Shown here: positions 3,781 through 49,172 of the stretch, piece after piece
How the letters are laid out: the number at the start of each line of letters is the position of its first letter
How positions within the stretch are numbered: the first letter of the stretch is position 1
Source of the DNA: a virus
Lineage: Duplodnaviria > Heunggongvirae > Uroviricota > Caudoviricetes
Length of the DNA stretch: 64,000 bases
Strand: one strand, 5' to 3'
IMG/VR virus record: IMGVR_UViG_3300025000_000058
Program-made: the position numbers and the translations under genes
Notes under the pieces: model-generated
Told to the model about the DNA's origin: nothing
Seen by the model: the letters and a program-made list of their open reading frames with translations, nothing else
Database searches by the model: none

Positions 3781-4548
3781 ATTAAAATGAAAATATTGAT
3801 ATTAGATAAAGGACATATAGGAAAAAATCCTTCTGAAGATTGTGGTGCGTTTGGGAATGGTTTATATGAGTCAGATTTAACAGATATTATAGTTGAAGGA
3901 ATTAAAAAACGTATATTAAACAAATACGATGTAGATATAAAAATTGCCCCAAGAGGGACATTAAATGATAGAACTAATTTTGCTAATTCTATTAATGCAG
4001 ATTATTTTTTAAGTGTGCATATAAATAGTGCAGTTAATGAAAAAGCAACTGGATTTGAGTCATTTATACATAATAATGCTAGTCAAAAATCATTAGATAT
4101 ACAAAACATACTTCATAAAGAAATTATGGAGTATATGAAACAATATAATGTATTTGATAGAGGTAAAAAGAGAGCGAATTTTGCTGTTTTAAGAAATAGT
4201 AAATGTAGTGCATGTTTAATTGAGTGTTTATTCATTAATTCACCCAAAGATGCAGAATTGCTTAAAAATAATAAGTTTTTAGATGGGCTATCTAATAGTA
4301 TTACGTTTGGTTTAGTTCAAGCATTAAATTTAAAATTGAAAGAGAATGCTAGTGATATAACTGAGAATATAAATACAAATATACTACAAACCAAAAACGC
4401 TAAAAATATTGTAATTAATGGTGTTAAAGTAGAAGTTGATAATTATACAATTAACGAAACTACATACTTAAATGCTAAAGATGTTGCTAAGATATTTAAT
4501 AAAAAAATTAATTGGGATGCAGAAACTAAAACAGTATCAATTAATTAA
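3781..4548 (+). CDS. Endolysin, N-acetylmuramoyl-L-alanine amidase (Amidase_3) with C-terminal stalk/copper-amine-oxidase-like domain
   Basis: ILDKGH, E, SVHIN and ACLIECLF zinc-amidase motifs; C-terminal VAKIFNKKINWDAETKTVSIN. SD AGGAGG is 8 nt from an in-frame ATT (3781) but 14 nt from the ATG (3787). Confidence 0.9.
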   Translation: MKMKILILDKGHIGKNPSEDCGAFGNGLYESDLTDIIVEGIKKRILNKYDVDIKIAPRGTLNDRTNFANSINADYFLSVHINSAVNEKATGFESFIHNNASQKSLDIQNILHKEIMEYMKQYNVFDRGKKRANFAVLRNSKCSACLIECLFINSPKDAELLKNNKFLDGLSNSITFGLVQALNLKLKENASDITENINTNILQTKNAKNIVINGVKVEVDNYTINETTYLNAKDVAKIFNKKINWDAETKTVSIN

Positions 4549-9316: not shown

Positions 9317-9607
9317 TTAATTTATTTCGTATATTAAAGTATCAATATTTCTTTTAAATTCAATTTTAATAATGTTATACTTATTAAGTATATTCAATAA
9401 TTCTTTTTTAGTATAAAAACCATCAGAACATATTAAACAACGATAACCTTTTATAACATAAGTAATATAGGTAACTTTATAATTATTATAGTGTATAAGT
9501 AAGCTAAAATCATTTTTTATAACAGAATCAATACATTTTTTTAACAGTGGTGTTATTTCTGAAATATCTATCTTAATAATTTTTTTCTTTATTATAAACA
9601 CCTCCAT
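9317..9607 (-). CDS. Hypothetical protein; true start may be ATA at 9592
   Basis: The called ATG-GAG-GTG is itself the SD sequence (GGAGGTG). Confidence 0.6.
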   Translation of the reverse strand: MEVFIIKKKIIKIDISEITPLLKKCIDSVIKNDFSLLIHYNNYKVTYITYVIKGYRCLICSDGFYTKKELLNILNKYNIIKIEFKRNIDTLIYEIN

Positions 9608-17285: not shown

Positions 17286-18593
17286 TTATTCATCATTCCT
17301 TGCTTCATCTTCTTCCATATCAATAACATCATCTGCTTTAATAATGCCTTCTAACAATTTAAACATGAAGCTTTTGTGTTTAAGTGCTGTAAACTTTTCT
17401 CGATCTTCTATTCTTACAACAATCCCTTCTCTGATGTGATTTTTACCAATAGGATCAGTATCATCAACATATCTATTAACTCTTTCTATTAAATCATTAA
17501 CTGTAGTAAATATGAATTTATCAAATACTGGTACAAACTTTACACCCATTTGTTCACATCTAATTTGAGTATATTTTGTTGAATACTCTACTACTCTGCC
17601 ATCTTCATCAGTTTTAGTCATTCTATATACATAAATATCATTTTGTCCTACTCCACATCCATACGTAAATCTTGTAGTTTCTCCATATAATTTAATAAAT
17701 TCTTTATCTTTTGTTTTCTTATTATTGCATTCAGGCATAATAGTTGTATTCTCATTTACATATCCTACAATTTCATAATAAATAGTTTCGCCTTTATGGA
17801 GTTTATCAATAAAAAAATCATGCCATTCTTTTCTGAAATTATCATTGCCATAAAATCCATTATTATAATTTTTTAATATTGCTCTTCTTGTTCCCGAAAT
17901 ATAATCCCATGATTTCTTATTAGATATTTTTATATTTACTTTTTGTAATATTTTATACAACCAATAAGGTAATAATTTTTTCTTTTCTTTAACAGTATGA
18001 CTCGATCTGCCAGATGTCCCATGAAGCTTTAAAGTAATATAACACAAATCACCTTCTTTAAATTGCCCTGTATTATAAGCAAGCTGTGAAGTATCTCTAT
18101 GCTCTTCAAAGAAAGGATAAGATATAGTTTCAATTTTCTTCTTTTTCTTCTCTTTAGGTGTACCTTCTGACCTATTTCTATTATTTCCTTTTGGAATATA
18201 TTTTTCACATATTAATACTCCATTAAGAATAGAAATTGTATCTCCTTCTTTTAAAGTATTAATATCAGTAAACTTCTCTAAACTTTTTATTGGCATTAAT
18301 AAACCATCAGATTTTTCTTTTCTTAATTTGATTGTAGTTACATGGCATTTTGATTCATCCATGTAACCACCAATATTATTTCCTTGTTCATCTTTTACTC
18401 TAAGTAGTTTGTTTTCTCTACAATATTCTACATTAAGACGACCATCTGTAGGAAAATAAATCATTAAATCATTTTCTTTAACATCTAATCCTACAATAAC
18501 ATCATTACCAAATACAGTAGCAACTTGAAGTCTATCAGCATTAGAATGTGGCTTGAGAATTTTAATTTTTACAATATATGCATTATAACTCAT
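17286..18593 (-). CDS. RNA ligase (DRB0094/Rnl2-type) with N-terminal OB-like domain
   Basis: PHSNADRLQVA N-terminus; motif I TLKLHGTS, motif IV REGIVVR, motif V ALKHKS. Confidence 0.85.
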   Translation of the reverse strand: MSYNAYIVKIKILKPHSNADRLQVATVFGNDVIVGLDVKENDLMIYFPTDGRLNVEYCRENKLLRVKDEQGNNIGGYMDESKCHVTTIKLRKEKSDGLLMPIKSLEKFTDINTLKEGDTISILNGVLICEKYIPKGNNRNRSEGTPKEKKKKKIETISYPFFEEHRDTSQLAYNTGQFKEGDLCYITLKLHGTSGRSSHTVKEKKKLLPYWLYKILQKVNIKISNKKSWDYISGTRRAILKNYNNGFYGNDNFRKEWHDFFIDKLHKGETIYYEIVGYVNENTTIMPECNNKKTKDKEFIKLYGETTRFTYGCGVGQNDIYVYRMTKTDEDGRVVEYSTKYTQIRCEQMGVKFVPVFDKFIFTTVNDLIERVNRYVDDTDPIGKNHIREGIVVRIEDREKFTALKHKSFMFKLLEGIIKADDVIDMEEDEARNDE

Positions 18594-19427: not shown

Positions 19428-19776
19428 TTATCTTTTAATTAATTGACTCTCAAATCTATTATGTGGAATATATTGTTTGATTAATCTAATACCATATTCA
19501 CATTCTATTTTGTCAGTACAAGTAAATATATCAATCCAACATGTTTTAATTTCAGGAAATGTATGAATTGATATATGAGATTCAGCTAAAACAATATATT
19601 ATTGTCAATCCTTGTGGATTAAATTTAACTGAATCATATTTTACAACTGTTGCATTTATATTGTGTGCAACAGATAATAAAATATGTTTTATCATAACAT
19701 CATCTTCTAAAAAATCAACTGACACACCTTCAAGTTTTATTAATGCATGTTTTGGATTTATATTGTTTATGTTCAT
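19428..19776 (-). pseudogene. speD: S-adenosylmethionine decarboxylase proenzyme (SpeD/SpeH family), split by a +1 frameshift
   Basis: Frame 0 reads KFNPQGLTIIYCFS-TGA. The +1 frame continues VLAESHISIHTFPE...WIDIFTC to TAA at 19428. The joined product is 115 aa. Confidence 0.85.
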
Positions 19777-22868: not shown

Positions 22869-25733
22869 TTAATTACATTTAGAAAAACCACAATTACTAC
22901 AAACAGAACAACCACCATCTGGCAATAATAATTCATTACACTCAGGACATTTTGTTAGATCATTAATTGCAACTTCACTTTCTTCTTCAAGTATAATATT
23001 TTCTTCAATTATTTGCTTAGTATTATTACCATCTTTTAATGCTTTTTGATATTTAATTAATGCTCTTGCTATAGCACTAGGGCAAGATGTTCCTGGTGAA
23101 ACTCTTGTACCTTTACCTTTAGCATATAAATATGCAGGACAACTGCCAACACTATCTAATTGGTCAACTACATCTTCTAAGCTTATACCCCCACGTAATG
23201 CAATACTAATTAATCTTGACATTGCTTGTGTACTTGCTACACAACCACCTTTAGAACCTGTATTAATAAATGTTTCGATTATTTTATTATTACAATCTAC
23301 AAAACACATGAGCCAAATTGCCCCGCACCCTGTAGTTAATTTTAGCCGTTTTCCTTTAGCTTCTTTTTTACTCGTAATAATACTCCCTCTTGCTAATCTC
23401 TTTGTAGTTTTTTCTTTAACTTCTACAATTTCTTTTTTATCTTCAGTATTACCTGTAGACAATACGTTTTCTCTTGAACCATCTCTATATACTGTGACAC
23501 CCTTTAAACCCATTTTCCATGCTTCAATATATACATTACTAACATCATCAACAGTAGCACTCTTAGGTAAGTTTACTGTTTTAGAAAGAGATAGATCAAC
23601 ATGTTTTTGTACAATTGCAACAGTTTTTAAATGTTCCATTGGTGTTAAATCACTAGCAACAACAAAGACTCTTTTAATATCATCAGGTATTTCATCTATG
23701 CCTTGCACAGAACCATTGTTATTAAAAACTTTTTCAATTAATTCTTCACTATAAATATCTAACTCTTTTAATCTATTTTCAAGCACACTATTGACAATAT
23801 AATATATTGTACCATCATTAGCTTTTCTCTTGAAAACTAAAGCAAAATTAGGTTCTACACCAGAACTAGTTTTTGCTATAAAACTAATTGATCCTGTTGG
23901 AGCAATACTTAATAAATTACTGTTTCTAATTAAAATACCCTGCTTTTGCCATACTGAACCTTCGTATGCAGGATAAACACCTTTTTCATTAGCTAAAATA
24001 CAGCTTGTACTAACAGAAACATCATATATATACTTATATAATTCATCAGTTAAGTCATATGCTTCTTGTGAATTGTATGGTATGTTTAACATATAAAGCA
24101 TGTCAGCATATCCCATAGTGCCTAAGCCAATACTTCTAATCATATTAGTTACTTCTTGTATTTTTGGCAAAGGCAGTTTATTAATAGTCACAACATTATC
24201 AAGAAATCTAACAGAGTGTTCTACTAATTCACTTAATTTTTTATAATTAATCGCATTCCCTTCAACCATTTTAGCTAAATTAATTGAACCTAAATTACAT
24301 GAACTATAAGATATATTGACAAATTCTGCACAATTATGAACATATACAGCATTAATTGCTACAGCTTGATTAAGTTTAGGTTCATTGAAGTCCCATACTT
24401 CAACATCACCATATTCTTCAATATTAGTAACTTTAACATTAGTTAATCCATCATCACATAATAACTCTTTGCCTAATAAATCTTTTGCTTCGCACCAATT
24501 TTCATTAGACAATTTGAATTTATGATCAGGTGTAACAATATACTCACAATTATTATTTGTATTAACTTTAATTGTATATTTTACTCCAGTTTTCCAACTT
24601 GTTGCAGGAGTAAATTCTTCCCCATTCCATATATCGGATTTTAATTCACTAATTTTTTCATAACCATTTTCAGTTAAGAGCAATGTATCTTTGTGTAAAC
24701 ATGGATTAGAACCAATAATTCTACCTAAATGTGGATTCATATTAGCTTTGTCCATTGTATCTCTAAAGCTAACACCTGGCTCACCTGTTCTCCATGCACA
24801 CTCTACTAAATGATTCCATAATTCTTTTGCCTGAATAGGTTTATGAACTTTTCCATTAAAATTTAAATCCCACCATTTACCTTTTAGCAATGCATTCATA
24901 AAATCATCGCTTAAAGAAACAGAAATATTCATATTTTTATAATTTTCTGTATCATCTTTGCAATGAATAAATTCAATTATTTCAGGGTGATGATCATTTA
25001 AATCTATTTTCAATGCACCTTTTCTTCTACCACCTTGTTTAACTGTTTCAACAATCTTATCATAAATACCCATAAATGATACTACACCACTAGCATAACC
25101 ATTGCTTGTTAAAACAATATCATCTTTTGGACGTAATGGACTTATATTAAATCCTACTCCTCCACCACTTTTAAATACAATTGACATGTCTTTTGCGAGA
25201 TCCATAATACTTTCCATACTATCTTCAATCTCTAAAATAAAACAACTGCTTAATTGTTGTAGTGTAGTGCCAGCGTTAAATAAAGTTGGAGAAGAGGGTA
25301 TAAATTCCATTTTCATCATCATATCTTTAAATATTTTTTCATATTTAACTTTTAATTTTTTATCTGTTTCTGCATTAGCTATATTCGCTGATACTCTTTT
25401 GCAAACATCTTCCCATGTATGTTCGATTAATTCATTGTTCATATCTTTTAAGAAATATCTTTTCACCAATAAATCTTGTACATTTTTATCAATAATGATA
25501 TTACCATTAATAATATTATTAATATCATTAATTAATAAATCATCAATATCACTAGATTTTGAATGTACATGTGTATTAACATTGTATATAGAATAACCTG
25601 GGGTGTAAGGATCGTCAATGAATTTGACTACATATTCATTATTCAATTTCCATTCAGAACCGTTTTTAACCTCATGTAATTTTTTAACAATATCTACTTT
25701 ACGCAGATATTTAATAATGTCAGTATTATTAAT
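22869..25733 (-). CDS. nrdJ: Class II (B12-dependent) ribonucleotide reductase with intein and C-terminal TSCPD/zinc-ribbon domain
   Basis: PSSPTLFNAG, SSCF, GGGVG, NP|CAE, CNLGSINL, APTGSIS, SKTVNLP and VTVYRDGSR motifs. The frame extends to an ATT at 25733 behind a strong SD; the track starts it at TTG 25646. Confidence 0.92.
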   Translation of the reverse strand: MNNTDIIKYLRKVDIVKKLHEVKNGSEWKLNNEYVVKFIDDPYTPGYSIYNVNTHVHSKSSDIDDLLINDINNIINGNIIIDKNVQDLLVKRYFLKDMNNELIEHTWEDVCKRVSANIANAETDKKLKVKYEKIFKDMMMKMEFIPSSPTLFNAGTTLQQLSSCFILEIEDSMESIMDLAKDMSIVFKSGGGVGFNISPLRPKDDIVLTSNGYASGVVSFMGIYDKIVETVKQGGRRKGALKIDLNDHHPEIIEFIHCKDDTENYKNMNISVSLSDDFMNALLKGKWWDLNFNGKVHKPIQAKELWNHLVECAWRTGEPGVSFRDTMDKANMNPHLGRIIGSNPCLHKDTLLLTENGYEKISELKSDIWNGEEFTPATSWKTGVKYTIKVNTNNNCEYIVTPDHKFKLSNENWCEAKDLLGKELLCDDGLTNVKVTNIEEYGDVEVWDFNEPKLNQAVAINAVYVHNCAEFVNISYSSCNLGSINLAKMVEGNAINYKKLSELVEHSVRFLDNVVTINKLPLPKIQEVTNMIRSIGLGTMGYADMLYMLNIPYNSQEAYDLTDELYKYIYDVSVSTSCILANEKGVYPAYEGSVWQKQGILIRNSNLLSIAPTGSISFIAKTSSGVEPNFALVFKRKANDGTIYYIVNSVLENRLKELDIYSEELIEKVFNNNGSVQGIDEIPDDIKRVFVVASDLTPMEHLKTVAIVQKHVDLSLSKTVNLPKSATVDDVSNVYIEAWKMGLKGVTVYRDGSRENVLSTGNTEDKKEIVEVKEKTTKRLARGSIITSKKEAKGKRLKLTTGCGAIWLMCFVDCNNKIIETFINTGSKGGCVASTQAMSRLISIALRGGISLEDVVDQLDSVGSCPAYLYAKGKGTRVSPGTSCPSAIARALIKYQKALKDGNNTKQIIEENIILEEESEVAINDLTKCPECNELLLPDGGCSVCSNCGFSKCN
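24333..24701 (-). mobile_element. Mini-intein (123 aa, no endonuclease) at the RNR active-site cysteine
   Basis: Block A CLHKDT, block B TPDH, block F VWDFNEP, C-terminal VHN followed by Cys (+1); interrupts NP|CAE. Confidence 0.92.
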
Positions 25734-28196: not shown

Positions 28197-28769
28197 TTAA
28201 ACAAATTTATACTCATTAAATGTTTTAATAAATATGTTAGCTATATTTTTAGCATCGTCAATTCCTCTATGGTGTGTACCATCATGTTTCAAATTTAACA
28301 TTCTAAGTGCTGTTAACATACCAACATGTTTAATTCTTCTATTTTTACAAAATTGATGTTTAACTGAAATATGTTTATCCAACCATTTAATAGGTAAATT
28401 GTGTAATGTGCAATCTTGTACTAATTGTTTCTTATCATAAAATCCCCAAGAACATAGATTGTAATTTATATTGGTATTATGACTATGTATCCAATTTTTA
28501 AAATCAGATATTACTTCATAAAATCCACTTGCAATATCAATATCTTCTTGTTTTATTGTAGTTAATTCTTTACAGAAATCAGATAACACAGGATTCAATT
28601 TAGGTTTTATATATCTATCATATTCATCAATTATTTCTAATTTATCATTGATTTTCACTGCACCAATTTCAATAATTTCAGATTGATATTTATCTCTTAA
28701 TTTATCATCATTCCAACATGTTGCTTCTAAGTCTAAAACAATATAGTGTCTATTTCCTTGTAAACTCAA
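28197..28769 (-). CDS. DEDDh 3'-5' exonuclease (ERI1/KapD-like)
   Basis: VLDLEATC, EIIEIGAV, SWGFYD, HHRGIDDA. Confidence 0.88.
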   Translation of the reverse strand: MSLQGNRHYIVLDLEATCWNDDKLRDKYQSEIIEIGAVKINDKLEIIDEYDRYIKPKLNPVLSDFCKELTTIKQEDIDIASGFYEVISDFKNWIHSHNTNINYNLCSWGFYDKKQLVQDCTLHNLPIKWLDKHISVKHQFCKNRRIKHVGMLTALRMLNLKHDGTHHRGIDDAKNIANIFIKTFNEYKFV

Positions 28770-30097
28770 TTTGTGAACCTCCTTATAATATGTTCTGCTA
28801 AATCTTCATAATTATTTAAATCAGGATTAATTAAAACCATTTCTAATAACCAATTTAACATAACACCAATTTCTTTACCCTGTTTAAATCCTAAAAATAT
28901 TAAATCATCACCATTAATTTCTAAATCTTTCACTGTTAGAGGTTGTTTTTCATTAAGTATTCTAAAACACTCATCAGATAATTTCATAATATTATCAACA
29001 TCTTCTTGTTTTTTATATTTAGAACCTTTAATATCTGCAATTTGCAATTCAAACAAATCATTAAGATTCTCTATACCTACACGATTAATAAACTTCTTTG
29101 TGTTTGCAATTCTTAATTTATCATATCTTGACATATGCTCTTTAACGAGTATTGTTACACCATATATTGTACTATTGTCAAATTTTAAACGCTTTAATAT
29201 TTCTTCTGTCATATCAGCACCTATAATATGATGTTTATAAAAATGACCAATACCATTTTCATCTAAACTAAAACAACAAGGTTTAGCAATATCATGAAGC
29301 AATGCACCCAATCTTATATTTAAAGTCTTTGGCGTTGCATCTAATACAGCCATAATATGATGAAAAACATCTTTATCATGATTGGGATTATATTGTTGAA
29401 ACCCAAAGCAAACACACAATTCAGGAATAATATATTGCAATAAACCAGAATAATATAATAATCTTATGCCTTTACTTGGACTATCATTCATTAATATTTT
29501 GCACAATTCATCTCTGATTCTTTCTTTAGAAATCATTTGTATTAAATATGCATTATTTTTAATAGCTAAAAATGTATCTCCTTCTATAATAAAATTATAT
29601 TGTGAACTAAATCTAATAGCTCTCATAAGGCGAAGTGCATCTTCTTCAAAACGCATATTAGCATTACCTACAGCACGAATTATACCATGTTCAATATCTT
29701 TTAAACCATTATGGTAATCATAAACATTTCTATTTATATCAATAGCAATTGAATTGATTGTAAAATCCCTTCTTGCCAAATCGTCCATTAAATCATTGGT
29801 ATAAAATACTTCTTCTGGATTTCTATTGTCTTTATATTCCCCATCTTTACGCATGGTTGTTATTTCAAAATGTTCACCATTTAAAACAACTGTAACAGTA
29901 CCATGCTTCAATCCTGTATCATATGATTTTGCAAATAAAGATTTTACTTGTTCTGGTGTTGCATCTGTAGTAATATCATAGTCTTTGGGACTTTTATAAT
30001 TAAAAATATTTCTTACTGAACCTCCAACCAAATACCCCTTAAACCCATTAACTTCTAAATGCATAAGTACATATTCTACTGTTTGAGGTATTTCCAT
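28766..30097 (-). CDS. cca: CCA-adding tRNA nucleotidyltransferase (class II, with HD region)
   Basis: LVGGSVR, DYDITT, RRDFTIN, EDALRLMRA, SKERI and LLHDIAKP motifs. Confidence 0.92.
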   Translation of the reverse strand: MEIPQTVEYVLMHLEVNGFKGYLVGGSVRNIFNYKSPKDYDITTDATPEQVKSLFAKSYDTGLKHGTVTVVLNGEHFEITTMRKDGEYKDNRNPEEVFYTNDLMDDLARRDFTINSIAIDINRNVYDYHNGLKDIEHGIIRAVGNANMRFEEDALRLMRAIRFSSQYNFIIEGDTFLAIKNNAYLIQMISKERIRDELCKILMNDSPSKGIRLLYYSGLLQYIIPELCVCFGFQQYNPNHDKDVFHHIMAVLDATPKTLNIRLGALLHDIAKPCCFSLDENGIGHFYKHHIIGADMTEEILKRLKFDNSTIYGVTILVKEHMSRYDKLRIANTKKFINRVGIENLNDLFELQIADIKGSKYKKQEDVDNIMKLSDECFRILNEKQPLTVKDLEINGDDLIFLGFKQGKEIGVMLNWLLEMVLINPDLNNYEDLAEHIIRRFTN

Positions 30098-30121
30098 ATA
30101 TAATCACCTTCTTTTTATTTA

Positions 30122-31108
30122 TTATTTATTAAAACTCATTAATGTTATATCACATAACAAATCATTTATTTTCTTTCTATCAGGTGAATGTGGTAATTTA
30201 GATTTTTCATAAGCTTCATCTAACTTAATAAACAATTGTTCAGCATGTGATTTTACCTGTTCTAAAGTATACTTACCATGTCTTATATCCAATAAATAAT
30301 CTTTTTCTGGTCTTAAAACATGTAATTCACCTGTCTCTAATATTTCAATACCTTGATTAAGTAATCTAATTAAATGGAGCGAATGTTTTACGTCATATCC
30401 AAAATCCTCAATTAATCCTTTATGTGAACCTATATGATTATGTTGTCCTTTCCCTATTTCTTTTTTAACAATAATAATTTCATCATTTGCTTTATTAACC
30501 ATATTATTATACTCTTGTATTTCATTTGTTAAAGAAATAATCATTTCAGCATCATTATCTGTTATTTCTGTAATACTTTTCTTTAAAATATCAAGTTTAT
30601 ATTCAAGTTTTGTAATATAAATATTATATTGTCTGATACGTTCATTTAAATTATTTAAACGTGTTTTTAATTCATCAACAGGCAATTTATTAGTCAATCT
30701 TTTTAATTGGCTGTAAGCATAGCCACCAAAGGTATGTCTCGCCCTTTTGGTTAAAAACAAAAATTTATTATCCATTATCATTTTACCAATGTCATTATAA
30801 AATATAATATGTTTATCATCAACAAATAAATGTTCAACAATATTTGGGTTACAATTAAATGCTAAATTAAAAAATTTATGCAAACCATAAATAGCAATTT
30901 CAGCTTTTTTTGTTTTATCACCAAAATTATAATATTCTTTAGAAATATATTGTTCAAAATTTTCAAATCCAATAATATATTCTCTTGATGGGATAGTAAT
31001 TGCTCCTAAATCAATGTCACTTGTTTCATGGCTTGTACCATAACTATGACTACCCCTATATACTTTTAATATAATGTTGTCTTCAATCCATTTCATGTTG
31101 TCATCCAA
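30122..31108 (-). CDS. Pol-beta-superfamily nucleotidyltransferase (YcgL/NrdC.11-like) with coiled-coil insert
   Basis: GSHSYG..SDID motif, CNPNIVEHLF, YDVKHSLHLIRLL; probable TTG start at 31108. Confidence 0.8.
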   Translation of the reverse strand: MDDNMKWIEDNIILKVYRGSHSYGTSHETSDIDLGAITIPSREYIIGFENFEQYISKEYYNFGDKTKKAEIAIYGLHKFFNLAFNCNPNIVEHLFVDDKHIIFYNDIGKMIMDNKFLFLTKRARHTFGGYAYSQLKRLTNKLPVDELKTRLNNLNERIRQYNIYITKLEYKLDILKKSITEITDNDAEMIISLTNEIQEYNNMVNKANDEIIIVKKEIGKGQHNHIGSHKGLIEDFGYDVKHSLHLIRLLNQGIEILETGELHVLRPEKDYLLDIRHGKYTLEQVKSHAEQLFIKLDEAYEKSKLPHSPDRKKINDLLCDITLMSFNK

Positions 31109-31420: not shown

Positions 31421-32428
31421 TTAAACAAAATATTTTACTTTATCATATAATATATTAAACGCTTCTATATTATCTGCTGGAGATTCTTTATCTTTTAATA
31501 AGTCACTTTTGGCATCATCATACATAACACCAACTTTACCAAATAACTTAAATCTATCAATAATATTTTTCAAATGTTTTTTTGTAACACCTTTATCCAA
31601 AGCAAATATTGGAGTTGCATTCAATCTTATAATTTGTTCTAGCTGTGCATCTGAAACATCCATACTACCTAGTGCTACACTATTATTAATACCATTACTC
31701 ATAAGTTGCATTACGCCTTTTTCTGCTTCAACAATTATAACTTCTTTATTTTTTTTAATATCTTTGTATGTTTTATCTAAACCAAATAATATTTTACTTT
31801 TTGATGTTGGGTGAAGATATATATACTTTTTTTTATCATCTTCATCTTTTTTATTTATCGCTCTGCCTTTCACCCCGACCAAATTACCAATAGAATCATA
31901 TATGGGCAATGTAATCCTTTCACTTCTCCTGTCAAAACCAATATTAAATAATCTTTGTATTTTGGGTTTGATGCCATCTTTAACAAACCAAATATTAGGA
32001 CATAATTCATAATCATTTAATACTGTTTCAGGAATTGGTTTTACTTTATGATCAATCTCAACTTCATTTCCTTCAATATTATCTAACCACTTTAACAAAC
32101 CTAATTCATCACTATTATCTTCTTCATTGTTTATGTTATAATAATCATATCCGCAAGTATCACATATCCATTTCATGGCTTGTGGAAATGATAATTCTTT
32201 AATAAATTCAACAAGTGATATTACATCTCCACTTACATCTCTTGTGAATACTTTACATATTAATGTGTTGATGTTTACTTGTACTGCCCTTTTATTTTGC
32301 CCTCCTGGTAAAGCACATGTTATCCATTCATTTCTTTCAGTTTTAATATTAGTACAACCTAATTGTTCAAAAATAAAAGCAACTAGGTTGTCTTCAATAA
32401 TTTTATCTTTTAATGTTTGAGCGTTAAT
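31421..32428 (-). CDS. dnaG: DNA primase (TOPRIM), starting at ATT
   Basis: Frame is open from ATT at 32428 (SD GGGGTG 6 nt upstream, TAA just before). N-terminal zinc-binding-type region, ITLPIYD..VGVKGR, IIVEAEKG and FALDKG. Confidence 0.85.
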   Translation of the reverse strand: MNAQTLKDKIIEDNLVAFIFEQLGCTNIKTERNEWITCALPGGQNKRAVQVNINTLICKVFTRDVSGDVISLVEFIKELSFPQAMKWICDTCGYDYYNINNEEDNSDELGLLKWLDNIEGNEVEIDHKVKPIPETVLNDYELCPNIWFVKDGIKPKIQRLFNIGFDRRSERITLPIYDSIGNLVGVKGRAINKKDEDDKKKYIYLHPTSKSKILFGLDKTYKDIKKNKEVIIVEAEKGVMQLMSNGINNSVALGSMDVSDAQLEQIIRLNATPIFALDKGVTKKHLKNIIDRFKLFGKVGVMYDDAKSDLLKDKESPADNIEAFNILYDKVKYFV

Positions 32429-32442
32429 TTATAACACCCCAT

Positions 32443-36215: not shown

Positions 36216-36796
36216 TATATCACCTTATTACTAATTATATTTTTTATATAAATTTTTACTTGTTTTTGAAGTTTATCTTTCAACTCTTCAATTGTACCAT
36301 TGTTTTCAACAATAATATCAAATACAAAATTGTCTAAATCTGTTTCTGATGCATGTTGATTAAGTTCATCTCCTGCAACATTATAGTTTGGTCTATTAAT
36401 TCTTAAAGTGATAATGCTATCAACTAAATTCTTTTTTTGTAATTTTTTAAAAAAATCATAATTAACTTTTTCTCTAAATGACTCAATTAATGCAATAGAT
36501 TCTGTAGCATACCCTACATATGGCATTATATCTCTTTCCCATACTCTACGTGCCATATGGTAAGGATAAAATTCAGTACCTACACGATATATTTCAGCCA
36601 TTAATTTTCTGCTTTCAGGCGTATCAAAACCATTCCAATAAAAATCATTAAAGCATAACTCCCTAATATAAGTAGACAAACTGCATTGTATTACATTATT
36701 ATATAAAGGAGAAAGCAGAGAATTTAACAAGTTCCCTGCTGTACCTTTCCCACTTCCACTTTTTCCTGATATTAATAGTATATCTGGTTTAATCAT
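36215..36796 (-). CDS. Deoxynucleoside monophosphate kinase-like protein
   Basis: ISGKSGSGKG P-loop, ESFR, HASETDLD. Confidence 0.8.
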   Translation of the reverse strand: MIKPDILLISGKSGSGKGTAGNLLNSLLSPLYNNVIQCSLSTYIRELCFNDFYWNGFDTPESRKLMAEIYRVGTEFYPYHMARRVWERDIMPYVGYATESIALIESFREKVNYDFFKKLQKKNLVDSIITLRINRPNYNVAGDELNQHASETDLDNFVFDIIVENNGTIEELKDKLQKQVKIYIKNIISNKVI

Positions 36797-38358: not shown

Positions 38359-39126
38359 TTATATTACTCTTATTTTGTTATAAAAATCATTATATTTATC
38401 AATTATATCCCATCTATCTTTAAATATATTGTATTTACTGTCGCTATTATATGGTATTTCTAGTGTTTTTATTCTTAATACTGTACTAGGTATAATATAT
38501 ATTTTATTATTATTCATTTCCTTATCCACTGCAAATGCCATATATATATCACATGAACTATATATTTTTTTTAATCTGAATACATAAGATTTATAATAAA
38601 TATCTGTATTATGTCCTTTTTTAATATTAGTATTTGCCATTTTAACGTCTATTTTAATATTATTATTAACTAATAAATCAAAATGACATTTTACAGCCAT
38701 CTTATCTACTTTATATCCTTTGGATTCTAATAATGTTTTTGCTATAAATTCATATTCGTTACCTATTAATCCTTTACATTCTTTAGAAGTTAAATTTAAT
38801 TTATTAGTCCAATATCGAAAACCACCATTTTTACATATTTTATTTGCAATACTACTATTGTTATATACGTCTTTTATTTCATTTAATGTTGGCATTCTAT
38901 TAAGTTCTAATACATCTATTACTTTTTTAATTCCTGATATAATTTCAACTTCAATATCTTCTAAATACTTTAACTTATTATGTTCTATTTTGGTTAAAAT
39001 ATTTAAAGTTTTTGCCCATTTCACATAACCACCTGTTTTTTCTATTTGTGCAGTTAAGCTATGACTACCCCTATATTTTATTATATCTTCTCTACTTGGC
39101 ATACATTCTAAATTCAATGCTTTCAT
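38359..39126 (-). CDS. Freestanding endonuclease-like protein: two N-terminal repeats plus PD-(D/E)XK domain
   Basis: Repeats MPS...GGYVKWA and MPT...GGFRYWT; FDLLVNNNIKIDVK. Possible upstream ATA/ATT start at 39165-39168. Confidence 0.65.
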   Translation of the reverse strand: MKALNLECMPSREDIIKYRGSHSLTAQIEKTGGYVKWAKTLNILTKIEHNKLKYLEDIEVEIISGIKKVIDVLELNRMPTLNEIKDVYNNSSIANKICKNGGFRYWTNKLNLTSKECKGLIGNEYEFIAKTLLESKGYKVDKMAVKCHFDLLVNNNIKIDVKMANTNIKKGHNTDIYYKSYVFRLKKIYSSCDIYMAFAVDKEMNNNKIYIIPSTVLRIKTLEIPYNSDSKYNIFKDRWDIIDKYNDFYNKIRVI

Positions 39127-39241
39127 AACTTCTCCTATTTCCTGCTCAATTACATTTAAATCTATAATAATAACCTCCTTTCTAGTATATAGTAATATAC
39201 TATATACTTAATATTTTTATTTCACTGATTTATCAATTATA

Positions 39242-40474: not shown

Positions 40475-40747
40475 TTAGAATTTTAATTTTAACCTTTCAA
40501 CGCATTGCCAAAATGTAACAGCAGAATTTTCTGTTTTAATTTTAATTATATTGTTTATTATATTCATTATTTCGGTTTTTAAAAAACAATTTTTCCAATA
40601 AATTGTTCTTAAAATATTATATAATTTAATAGATTCAATTTCATTATTAAATAATCTCATAACTTTCTGAATTATATTATCATGCATGTCCAATTTATTA
40701 TAATGTAAATACTCATTCTCTAACCGACTAGTTAATAGCTTGTCTAT
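40475..40747 (-). CDS. Hypothetical protein (~90 aa), probable ATA start
   Basis: SD AAGGAG 9 nt before an in-frame ATA at 40747; promoter TTGTAC-17-TATAAT at 40796-40824. Confidence 0.55.
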   Translation of the reverse strand: MDKLLTSRLENEYLHYNKLDMHDNIIQKVMRLFNNEIESIKLYNILRTIYWKNCFLKTEIMNIINNIIKIKTENSAVTFWQCVERLKLKF

Positions 40748-42228: not shown

Positions 42229-42411
42229 TTATTTATCTTTTTTGTATCCTAATTCTTCCATATATTCTGTTGTAGTTTTCTTTTTTCTTTTTGCTTGCTG
42301 TGCCAACTTATTGTACTCTTTTTGATTAATATATTCTTGTTTTTTTGGATTATACCAGTTAGTAGTTATAACTATAGATTTTTTTAAATTTATTGTTCTG
42401 ATATTAATAAT
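42229..42411 (-). CDS. Small basic protein (60 aa), ATT start
   Basis: The TTG used by the track is the -35 box. SD AGGAGATG lies 7 nt before the ATT at 42411. Confidence 0.55.
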   Translation of the reverse strand: MINIRTINLKKSIVITTNWYNPKKQEYINQKEYNKLAQQAKRKKKTTTEYMEELGYKKDK

Positions 42412-42442: not shown

Positions 42443-42471
42443 ATTATATAATAATATTTTTTAAAAGTCAA
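42443..42471 (-). promoter_or_regulatory. sigmaA promoter with AAAATATTA spacer motif
   Basis: TTGACT tttaa AAAATATTA tta TATAAT. Confidence 0.75.
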
Positions 42472-47959: not shown

Positions 47960-48652
47960 TTATTTTCTTTTTAATTTTAATTTTCTTCCCTGTGGTAATT
48001 CTTCCCACCTTTGTTTTATTCCAAATATGTTTTCACAAACAGCCATACGCATTTGATAGCTACTTAATTCTGCTATTTTTTCAAAATCTTCATTACTCGG
48101 ACACCAAATAAATTCTAAACACTTATTACATTTTTCATCAGCATTATAATATGGAATATCAATAATTCCATCTTTTAAAAATATAATATCATTTCTTTTC
48201 TTTAATAAGTTTAAAAATTTATCAAGATTATATTTTTCGTTGTTAATAAATCCTTCTGAATAATTGAATAATATTGCTTTAGGAAGTTTTTTGCCTGATA
48301 TATCATATATATTATAATCTGAAAATGATATATTTAGCAATTCTACATCATTCAATCCATTAGCTTCAATATAGTCATATGGTCTTTTAATATGATACTT
48401 CATCATTTCATCATAACTTCTACCGAATAAGTTACATCTTGAAAATTCTTTTACTTCATCAGAATATAGCTTATACTTACACTGTGGTATTTGCTCATTT
48501 AATATGATATTTTCTACCATATCTTTTAAAGCAACACCTTGTTTATATACAGGATTACTATTTGTCATACTAATTTTTTCTTTATATGCACATATTTCAT
48601 CTGTTATCTGAATTGTTTTTATTTCTCTTTTAACTGTATATTCTATAATCAT
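47960..48652 (-). CDS. Hypothetical protein (230 aa)
   Basis: SD present. Confidence 0.6.
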   Translation of the reverse strand: MIIEYTVKREIKTIQITDEICAYKEKISMTNSNPVYKQGVALKDMVENIILNEQIPQCKYKLYSDEVKEFSRCNLFGRSYDEMMKYHIKRPYDYIEANGLNDVELLNISFSDYNIYDISGKKLPKAILFNYSEGFINNEKYNLDKFLNLLKKRNDIIFLKDGIIDIPYYNADEKCNKCLEFIWCPSNEDFEKIAELSSYQMRMAVCENIFGIKQRWEELPQGRKLKLKRK

Positions 48653-49172
48653 TAAACATCTCTCCCTTTTTAATACTACAAATAATTTTTGCTTTACTGC
48701 CTTGATTCCATTTAAAATCTAACAAATATTGATACATATTATATATTTCGTTACCAAAGTAACCTCTAACATTGCCATAACAATAATATTTTGGCATTGC
48801 GTTCCAATCAAATAATTCTTTATTATTATACACAATTTCTGATATTTTATCAATTTTACCTTGAAATTCTTTTCCTCGATTTTTACCTCTGTTATAAACC
48901 CATTCATAACTTAATATATTCATATATTCTAATATGTCAGGTAAATAAGGCTTACCATTATTGTAAATCATTAATGTTATAGGATGGTTTGCGTGAGGTG
49001 GTAATTTACCACTTTTACTTTTAACTTCAATCAATCCCATTTTCATTAAACACATTTCAGCGATCTGATAACATTCTATCACTTGCTTATTTAATCTAAG
49101 ATCATCTAAATATCTTGCTGTATCTTTATATGATTTACAAGGCATAAATATTTGAATAAAAATCAACTCCAT
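48630..49172 (-). CDS. Pyrimidine-dimer DNA glycosylase/DenV-like protein (MSMEG_6728 family)
   Basis: QIFMP...ARYLDDLRLNKQVIECYQI and NHPITLM, plus later EW...RG; probable ATT start at 49157. Confidence 0.7.
   Translation of the reverse strand: MELIFIQIFMPCKSYKDTARYLDDLRLNKQVIECYQIAEMCLMKMGLIEVKSKSGKLPPHANHPITLMIYNNGKPYLPDILEYMNILSYEWVYNRGKNRGKEFQGKIDKISEIVYNNKELFDWNAMPKYYCYGNVRGYFGNEIYNMYQYLLDFKWNQGSKAKIICSIKKGEMFNDYRIYS

What the first reader, a model, noticed from the sequence alone, without database searches (positions are those of the whole stretch)
31421..32440. Systematic use of ATT/ATA start codons, including primase and RNR
The strongest cases have an optimally spaced SD and no suitable canonical start: primase (ATT 32428, stop just before it, restores the N-terminal domain), the Cys-rich gene (ATT 63119), 42411 (the alternative TTG is the -35 box), 40747 (ATA) and RNR (ATT 25733). 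Weaker cases are the endolysin (ATT 3781), the DenV-like gene (ATT 49157, giving the family-typical MQIF start), 9592 (ATA) and 39165/39168. AUU initiation is suppressed by IF3 and used in infC autoregulation (established). This phage may therefore tie replication, dNTP supply and lysis to IF3 activity, as a translation-level switch (inference).
Basis: partly seen in the sequence, partly recalled or inferred. Interest (0 to 1): 0.7.

Follow-up and report, generated by a model that had tools for sequence, protein, structure and literature searches.

The report
Weak start codons on phage enzymes
About six to eight of the 90 genes in this stretch of a large uncultured phage, including its DNA primase, most likely begin at the weak codons ATT or ATA instead of ATG; related phages do the same, probably to keep low-copy DNA enzymes scarce, and there is no sign of the proposed IF3-controlled switch.

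Summary
The window is part of a ~174-kb, 27% GC, SPbeta/c-st-like Firmicute phage from groundwater metagenomes. All claimed ATT/ATA codons exist and recur in 2-10 other assemblies. Three starts are backed by homologues whose Met aligns there: primase 32428, the Pyr_excise gene 49157 and the endonuclease-like gene 39165/39168. Three more have a strong SD, coding-like sequence and no canonical alternative (RNR 25733, 63119, 42411). Two are uncertain (40747, 9592). The endolysin claim is not supported: ATG 3787 matches the family start. The rate, 6-8 of 90, does not differ from SPbeta's own GenBank annotation (9/185). Across related phages, primase (7/43) and helicase (9/36) often start at ATT/ATA/ATC and swap freely with TTG/GTG/ATG, while YorF and YorG never do (0/48). 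In the window the other DNA enzymes mostly start at TTG. The best reading is graded translational down-tuning of low-copy enzymes (about 0.65). An IF3 switch is unsupported (about 0.1): the codon is not fixed, lysis is not involved, and no phage IF3 was found where I could look. The scan noted similar starts before in other phages.

The parts
31421..32428 (-). YorJ-like DNA primase, 335 codons, starting at ATT 32428; first canonical codon (ATG 32176) would drop the N-terminal 84 residues
   Evidence: PHROG 47 E 5e-39, PF08275; homologue Met aligns to the ATT; ATT kept in L016 (88% aa) and L052 (45% aa)
32435..32440 (-). Shine-Dalgarno GGGGTG of the primase, 6 nt before ATT and just after the upstream gene's stop (32445-32443)
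   Evidence: same in L016
32419..32439 (-). 8-bp hairpin pairing the primase SD with codons 2-3; most stable start-region fold of the 90 window genes (-8.8 kcal/mol, median -2.2); suggestive only (z -1.8)
22869..25733 (-). Class II (NrdJ-like) ribonucleotide reductase, probable ATT start behind AAAGGAGTGAT, with a ~78-residue N-terminal extension lacking homologues
24324..24701 (-). Mini-intein-like insert in the RNR (residues ~345-470)
   Evidence: TIGR01445 at its cut-off; PF14890 E 1e-5, below cut-off; gap against relatives
48630..49157 (-). Pyr_excise (DenV-like / MSMEG_6728-like) gene, ATT start
   Evidence: PF03013; NF038085 positions 1-33; homologue L045 has ATG at this codon
38359..39168 (-). 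Endonuclease-like gene (PHROG 28936; function inferred), start at ATT 39168 or ATA 39165 behind a perfect SD; absent in strain variant L009
62853..63119 (-). 88-codon Cys-rich gene with no ATG, probable ATT start
   Evidence: atlas hits all below 0.9
42229..42411 (-). 60-codon basic ORF, probable ATT start; promoter-like site at 42471-42443 overlaps the upstream TTG
40475..40747 (-). 90-codon ORF with possible ATA start; gene status uncertain
9317..9592 (-). 91-codon ORF with possible ATA start (9592 or 9595); SD-less ATG 9607 and GTG 9601 are alternatives
3787..4548 (+). Amidase_3 endolysin, most likely starting at ATG 3787 rather than ATT 3781

Best explanation
These are real near-cognate starts used for fixed dosage tuning. 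A strong SD holds the 30S subunit so that fMet-tRNA decodes AUU/AUA at a reduced rate (established for S. aureus: about 10% of AUG in poor medium). The phage sets gene output inside long operons with a ladder of start codons (ATG > TTG/GTG > ATT/ATA/ATC). Enzymes needed in few copies or harmful in excess (primase, helicase, polymerase, nucleases, a mobile endonuclease) sit on the low rungs. The two proteins I infer to be abundant (YorF, YorG) sit on ATG or TTG only. For this primase, an SD-hiding hairpin 15 nt past the upstream stop may add translational coupling. Shown: codons, SDs, homologue alignment, family distribution. Inferred: actual initiation, its rate, selection for low dosage, protein abundances, coupling.
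For: Met-column alignment for primase, 49157 and 39165/8. Primase starts among 42 non-redundant homologues: ATG 20, TTG 10, GTG 5, ATT 6, ATC 1. The ATT/ATC rows are not one clade (AU p 0.0002; at least 4 state changes). Helicase 9/36 ATA/ATT/ATC; YorF and YorG 0/48 (Fisher p 5e-4, not corrected for kinship). In the window, non-ATG starts are on 13/29 nucleic-acid-metabolism genes against 5/61 others (p 1e-4), and TTG/GTG alone 9/25 against 1/57 (p 6e-5) (classes assigned by me after seeing the data). SPbeta GenBank already lists 6 ATT and 3 CTG starts, including bnrdI. Reporter precedent: PMC13009471.
Against: No expression data. The window's own helicase starts at ATG, and dUTPase and two nucleotide kinases do too. 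Some ATT/ATA genes are small unknowns with no dosage argument. PMC5499595 shows that non-AUG genes can be highly expressed and that AUA or AUU can work at 50-95% of AUG in vitro. The hairpin is not family-wide and 13 of 200 shuffles fold as well.
Confidence: 0.65

Rival explanations
1. Near-neutral drift: in an AT-rich genome ATG mutates to ATT/ATA, and Firmicute ribosomes tolerate this behind a strong SD wherever little protein is needed. There is no selection for the weak codon, only relaxed selection for ATG.
For: 27% GC; the start codon changes often along the primase tree (12 ATG/non-ATG changes among 42 rows); the rate is like SPbeta's; several sites are small genes of unknown function.
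Against: ATT is shared by the window, L016 and L052 down to 45% amino-acid identity (branch support 94/91, not starred). ATG>TTG/GTG/ATC changes do not follow an AT bias yet show the same gene-class pattern. ATT also occurs in a 42% GC phage (L081).
Confidence: 0.2
2. Physiological gate: AUU starts make primase and RNR synthesis respond to the IF3/ribosome ratio, ppGpp or nutrient state, so that replication runs only in well-fed hosts.
For: In vitro, excess IF3 cuts AUU translation by about half to over 60%, and nutrient limitation or ppGpp hits non-AUG mRNAs (PMC5499595). ccpN AUA initiation is medium-dependent in S. aureus. Primase and RNR both use ATT here.
Against: The codon is interchangeable with TTG/GTG/ATG across the family. 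Primase and helicase non-canonical starts do not significantly co-occur (p 0.26). The closest RNRs use TTG, and strain L007 replaces this RNR by a TTG-started NrdD. The endolysin uses ATG. No IF3 gene in 4 relatives. AUA is only weakly IF3-sensitive.
Confidence: 0.1
3. The primase N-terminus is reached another way: from the ATG just after the upstream stop (32442, an 11-codon overlapping frame) with a -1 frameshift, or by read-through or re-initiation.
For: An out-of-frame ATG and an 11-codon mini-frame overlap the SD and ATT.
Against: No slippery heptamer. That ATG has no SD of its own and is part of the SD run. It is absent in the other ATT/ATC lineages. The ATT falls exactly on the family Met column.
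Confidence: 0.04
4. Sequencing or assembly error, or decayed genes.
Against: Same codons in 2-10 assemblies from different samples and assemblers; ATT primase starts in five other lineages; frames are intact.
Confidence: 0.01

Closest known systems
S. aureus AUU/AUA starts: cvfC1 (AUU), ccpN, citZ, infC (AUA) (PMC13009471)
   Same: Near-cognate codon behind a strong SD in a Firmicute setting; expected result is lowered initiation.
   Different: 4 sites in a bacterial genome, shown by experiment, all with extended SDs. Here 6-8 of 90 phage genes, predicted only; only some have the extended GTGAT-type SD (RNR yes, primase no).
Bacillus phage SPbeta GenBank annotation AF020713 (ATT: youA, yoqL, yorM, yorY, bnrdI, yotK; CTG: yomF, yoqK, yotH)
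   Same: Same phage group (YorF/H/I/J/K/L-like module); similar share of non-canonical starts (9/185); includes an RNR-associated gene.
   Different: SPbeta primase yorJ and bnrdE start at TTG; those starts are annotation calls, not shown by experiment in what I read.
E. coli infC autoregulation by IF3 at AUU; pcnB AUU
   Same: Same codon; AUU is IF3-sensitive (PMC5499595). pcnB is the precedent for simple limiting of an enzyme (title cited in PMC13009471).
   Different: No feedback loop: the products are not IF3, and the codon is not conserved across orthologues.
SPbeta/c-st-like YorJ primases (Geobacillus virus E3 gp98, Clostridium phage c-st CST059)
   Same: Full-length homology at 32-45% identity and same gene neighbourhood.
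   Different: E3 and c-st start at ATG; the c-st annotation itself starts downstream of the aligned ATG.

Membership tests
Near-cognate (AUU/AUA) initiation behind a strong SD in Firmicutes | ATT/ATA in frame at SD spacing used by ATG genes, with no canonical codon served by that SD | tested here: met
   Spacing 7-9, the mode for ATG genes; met for 8 sites, not for endolysin 3781
Near-cognate (AUU/AUA) initiation behind a strong SD in Firmicutes | Codon aligns with the initiator Met of homologues | tested here: met
   Primase, 49157, 39165/8; no homologues found for the RNR extension, 63119, 40747; 42411 and 9592 only scanned against Pfam and PHROGs
Near-cognate (AUU/AUA) initiation behind a strong SD in Firmicutes | Extended SD pairing (AU after the core SD) | tested here: inconclusive
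   Present by inspection for RNR, 40747 and 49157 (TGAT); absent for primase, 63119, 42411; host 16S tail unknown
Near-cognate (AUU/AUA) initiation behind a strong SD in Firmicutes | Ribosomes initiate there at reduced efficiency | not testable with these tools
   Needs Ribo-RET, N-terminomics or reporters
infC-type IF3-responsive control | Non-canonical codon conserved across orthologues | tested here: not met
   7 of 42 non-redundant primases; swaps with ATG/TTG/GTG
infC-type IF3-responsive control | Link to IF3 (gene product is or controls IF3) | tested here: inconclusive
   No PF00707 in 4 relatives, 2 complete; none among Pfam labels in window and flanks; about 95 kb of the own genome could not be searched
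infC-type IF3-responsive control | Expression rises when IF3 falls | not testable with these tools
   Needs IF3 titration
SPbeta/c-st-like YorJ primase | Full-length homology and place near YorF, YorH, YorI helicase and RecJ | tested here: met

The most novel reading that the evidence does not exclude
Large SPbeta-like phages have repeatedly placed their rate-limiting replisome enzymes (primase, helicase, here also RNR) on AUU/AUA/AUC starts so that genome replication is gated by the host's initiation fidelity (IF3/ribosome ratio, ppGpp, nutrients), a translation-level sensor without any dedicated regulator.
Probability: 0.12. Interest if true: 0.7.

Novelty: new member of a known kind. Interest (0 to 1): 0.38.

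Why it matters
Practical: gene callers truncate or miss these genes (the primase is on record as a 251-aa fragment on 14+ contigs, the RNR as 925 aa), so annotation and cloning of such phage enzymes go wrong. Conceptual: repeated use of weak starts on primase and helicase but not on YorF/YorG gives a natural, testable series for the open question of whether non-AUG starts in bacteria only limit dosage or also sense physiology. My paper searches found no study of this pattern in phages, but the library is incomplete.

Tried and rejected
Single-protein scans of viral or genome contigs found no close relatives for primase, RNR N-terminus, 49157, 40747, the amidoligase or the endolysin. The RNR extension has no homologue except itself; P0124 is a spurious repeat hit. 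The 39168 gene is absent from 32 related phage records, and P0125 had no contig on record. An automated SD-only caller gave false positives in control phages, so the comparison rests on SPbeta's curated annotation and on homologue alignment. Rejected: endolysin ATT start; the 11-codon overlapping mini-frame at the primase as a conserved element; the start-region hairpin as a family trait (Mann-Whitney p 0.22). Hecht 2017 was not held; four literature searches for phage IF3 or primase/replication start codons returned nothing relevant.

Full report
Setting. The window (27% GC, no tRNA genes) belongs to a large phage of the SPbeta/c-st type. It has a YorF/YorH/YorI/YorJ/RecJ/DnaE-like module. 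The same sequence occurs in many groundwater metagenome assemblies, the longest 173,928 bases. The host is unknown; the closest homologues are from Firmicute phages.

Observation. Each is identical in 2-10 other assemblies. An SD-led in-frame ATT/ATA is rare inside genes (17 of 15,112 codons), so finding one at the 5' end of an otherwise start-less frame has P of 0.001-0.03 per site. But 22 of 78 canonical genes also have a spare ATT/ATA at good spacing, so only sites without a canonical codon on the same SD count.

Primase. A stop lies directly before ATT 32428 and the first canonical codon is 84 codons downstream. Homologues begin with Met exactly at the ATT column, and the skipped part scores as coding. 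A relative at 88% identity keeps SD, spacer and ATT; one at 45% also has ATT. Among 42 non-redundant family members the start is ATG 20, TTG 10, GTG 5, ATT 6, ATC 1. The ATT/ATC rows are rejected as one clade (AU p 0.0002; at least four state changes), which shows repeated switching but not its direction. The start region forms the most stable fold of all 90 genes, an 8-bp hairpin hiding the SD, 15 nt past the upstream stop. It is only suggestive (z -1.8) and not family-wide.

Other sites. 49157: homologue L045 has its own SD and ATG at this codon, and NF038085 starts there. An SD-less ATG five codons upstream is the alternative that gene callers use. 39165/39168: the Met of P0128 aligns within two codons, and the helix upstream of ATG 39126 is homologous. 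RNR: strong SD, stop directly before, next canonical codon (TTG 25646) without SD, coding-like extension. The closest RNR starts about 78 residues later at TTG and the extension has no homologue, so this start is probable, not homology-proven. 63119 and 42411 are probable on SD, codon score and lack of alternatives; the TTG at 42471 is a -35 hexamer. 40747 and 9592 are uncertain. The endolysin most likely starts at ATG 3787, which is profile position 1; spacing 14 is used at 36796.

Is it systematic? The count is 6-8 of 90. SPbeta's GenBank record lists 9 non-canonical starts among the 185 I counted (6 ATT, 3 CTG, including bnrdI), not significantly different. The 19 called genes just beyond the window all start with ATG. 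What is non-random is the gene class. In the window 13/29 nucleic-acid-metabolism genes have non-ATG starts against 5/61 others, and TTG/GTG alone gives 9/25 against 1/57 (my classes, assigned after seeing the data). Across relatives, helicase has 9/36 ATA/ATT/ATC starts and primase 7/43, while YorF and YorG have 0/48 (not corrected for kinship).

Mechanism. Established: near-cognate starts behind strong SDs work in Firmicutes at about 10% of AUG in poor medium (PMC13009471). IF3 excess lowers AUU translation, affects AUA less and barely affects UUG (PMC5499595). Inferred: the phage uses a ladder of start codons to set protein amounts within operons, with low-copy enzymes on the weak rungs (0.65). 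Relaxed selection plus tolerance is the main rival (0.2). A purposeful IF3 or nutrient gate (0.1) is not excluded but lacks support: the codon swaps with IF3-canonical TTG/GTG, primase and helicase cases do not co-occur significantly, a strain variant swaps in a TTG-started NrdD, lysis is not involved, and no IF3 gene was found in four relatives.

Comparison and verdict. This is a new case of a known kind: AUU/AUA initiation as in S. aureus cvfC1/ccpN/citZ, E. coli pcnB and annotated SPbeta genes. It fails the conservation test for an infC-type circuit. Earlier scan notes report similar starts in other Firmicute phages and elsewhere in this genome; I read them after my own family analysis and do not count them as evidence. 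Interest 0.38: real, useful for annotation and testable, but expected for this phage group.

Noticed in passing
window 24324-24701 (-): Mini-intein-like insert of about 126 residues in the class II RNR, at the NPC/AE active-site motif; absent from the closest relative.
   Followed up: partly
window 25500-25733 (-): Coding-like N-terminal extension of about 78 residues on the RNR with no homologue in 1.8 billion representatives.
   Followed up: partly
L007 10504-12989: A strain variant replaces the NUDIX-like gene and class II RNR with an anaerobic NrdD/NrdG pair at the same position.
   Followed up: no
window 38359-39207; L009 190-1556: The endonuclease-like gene is missing in strain L009, whose adjacent AAA_24 gene is only about 76% identical, consistent with a mobile element or allele swap.
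   Followed up: partly
L034 9242-14826: Strain variant whose DnaE is split into two called genes by a LAGLIDADG-like ORF, suggesting an intron; a short duplication of the SD upstream of the 9592 gene puts a GTG at good spacing.
   Followed up: no
window 28766-31108 (-): Adjacent CCA-adding-like nucleotidyltransferase and RlaP-like nucleotidyltransferase; an RtcB-sized RNA ligase gene lies at 17286-18593.
   Followed up: no
window 19428-19776 (-): AdoMet decarboxylase homology covers only profile positions 1-53 in the first frame; the rest appears to lie in another frame.
   Followed up: partly
L029 138-8687 (beyond window end): Run of 19 genes nearly all with the same ACAGGAGGTTTT ribosome-binding motif and ATG starts, separated by ~100-nt spacers.
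   Followed up: partly
L004 1495-1543 (c-st CST059): The GenBank start of the c-st primase lies downstream of an SD-led ATG that aligns with the family Met; likely mis-annotated.
   Followed up: no
L047 3935 and 43616 (SPbeta): SD-led ATA upstream of annotated yoqJ and an unannotated SD-led ATT ORF before yosV: possible further non-canonical starts in SPbeta.
   Followed up: no
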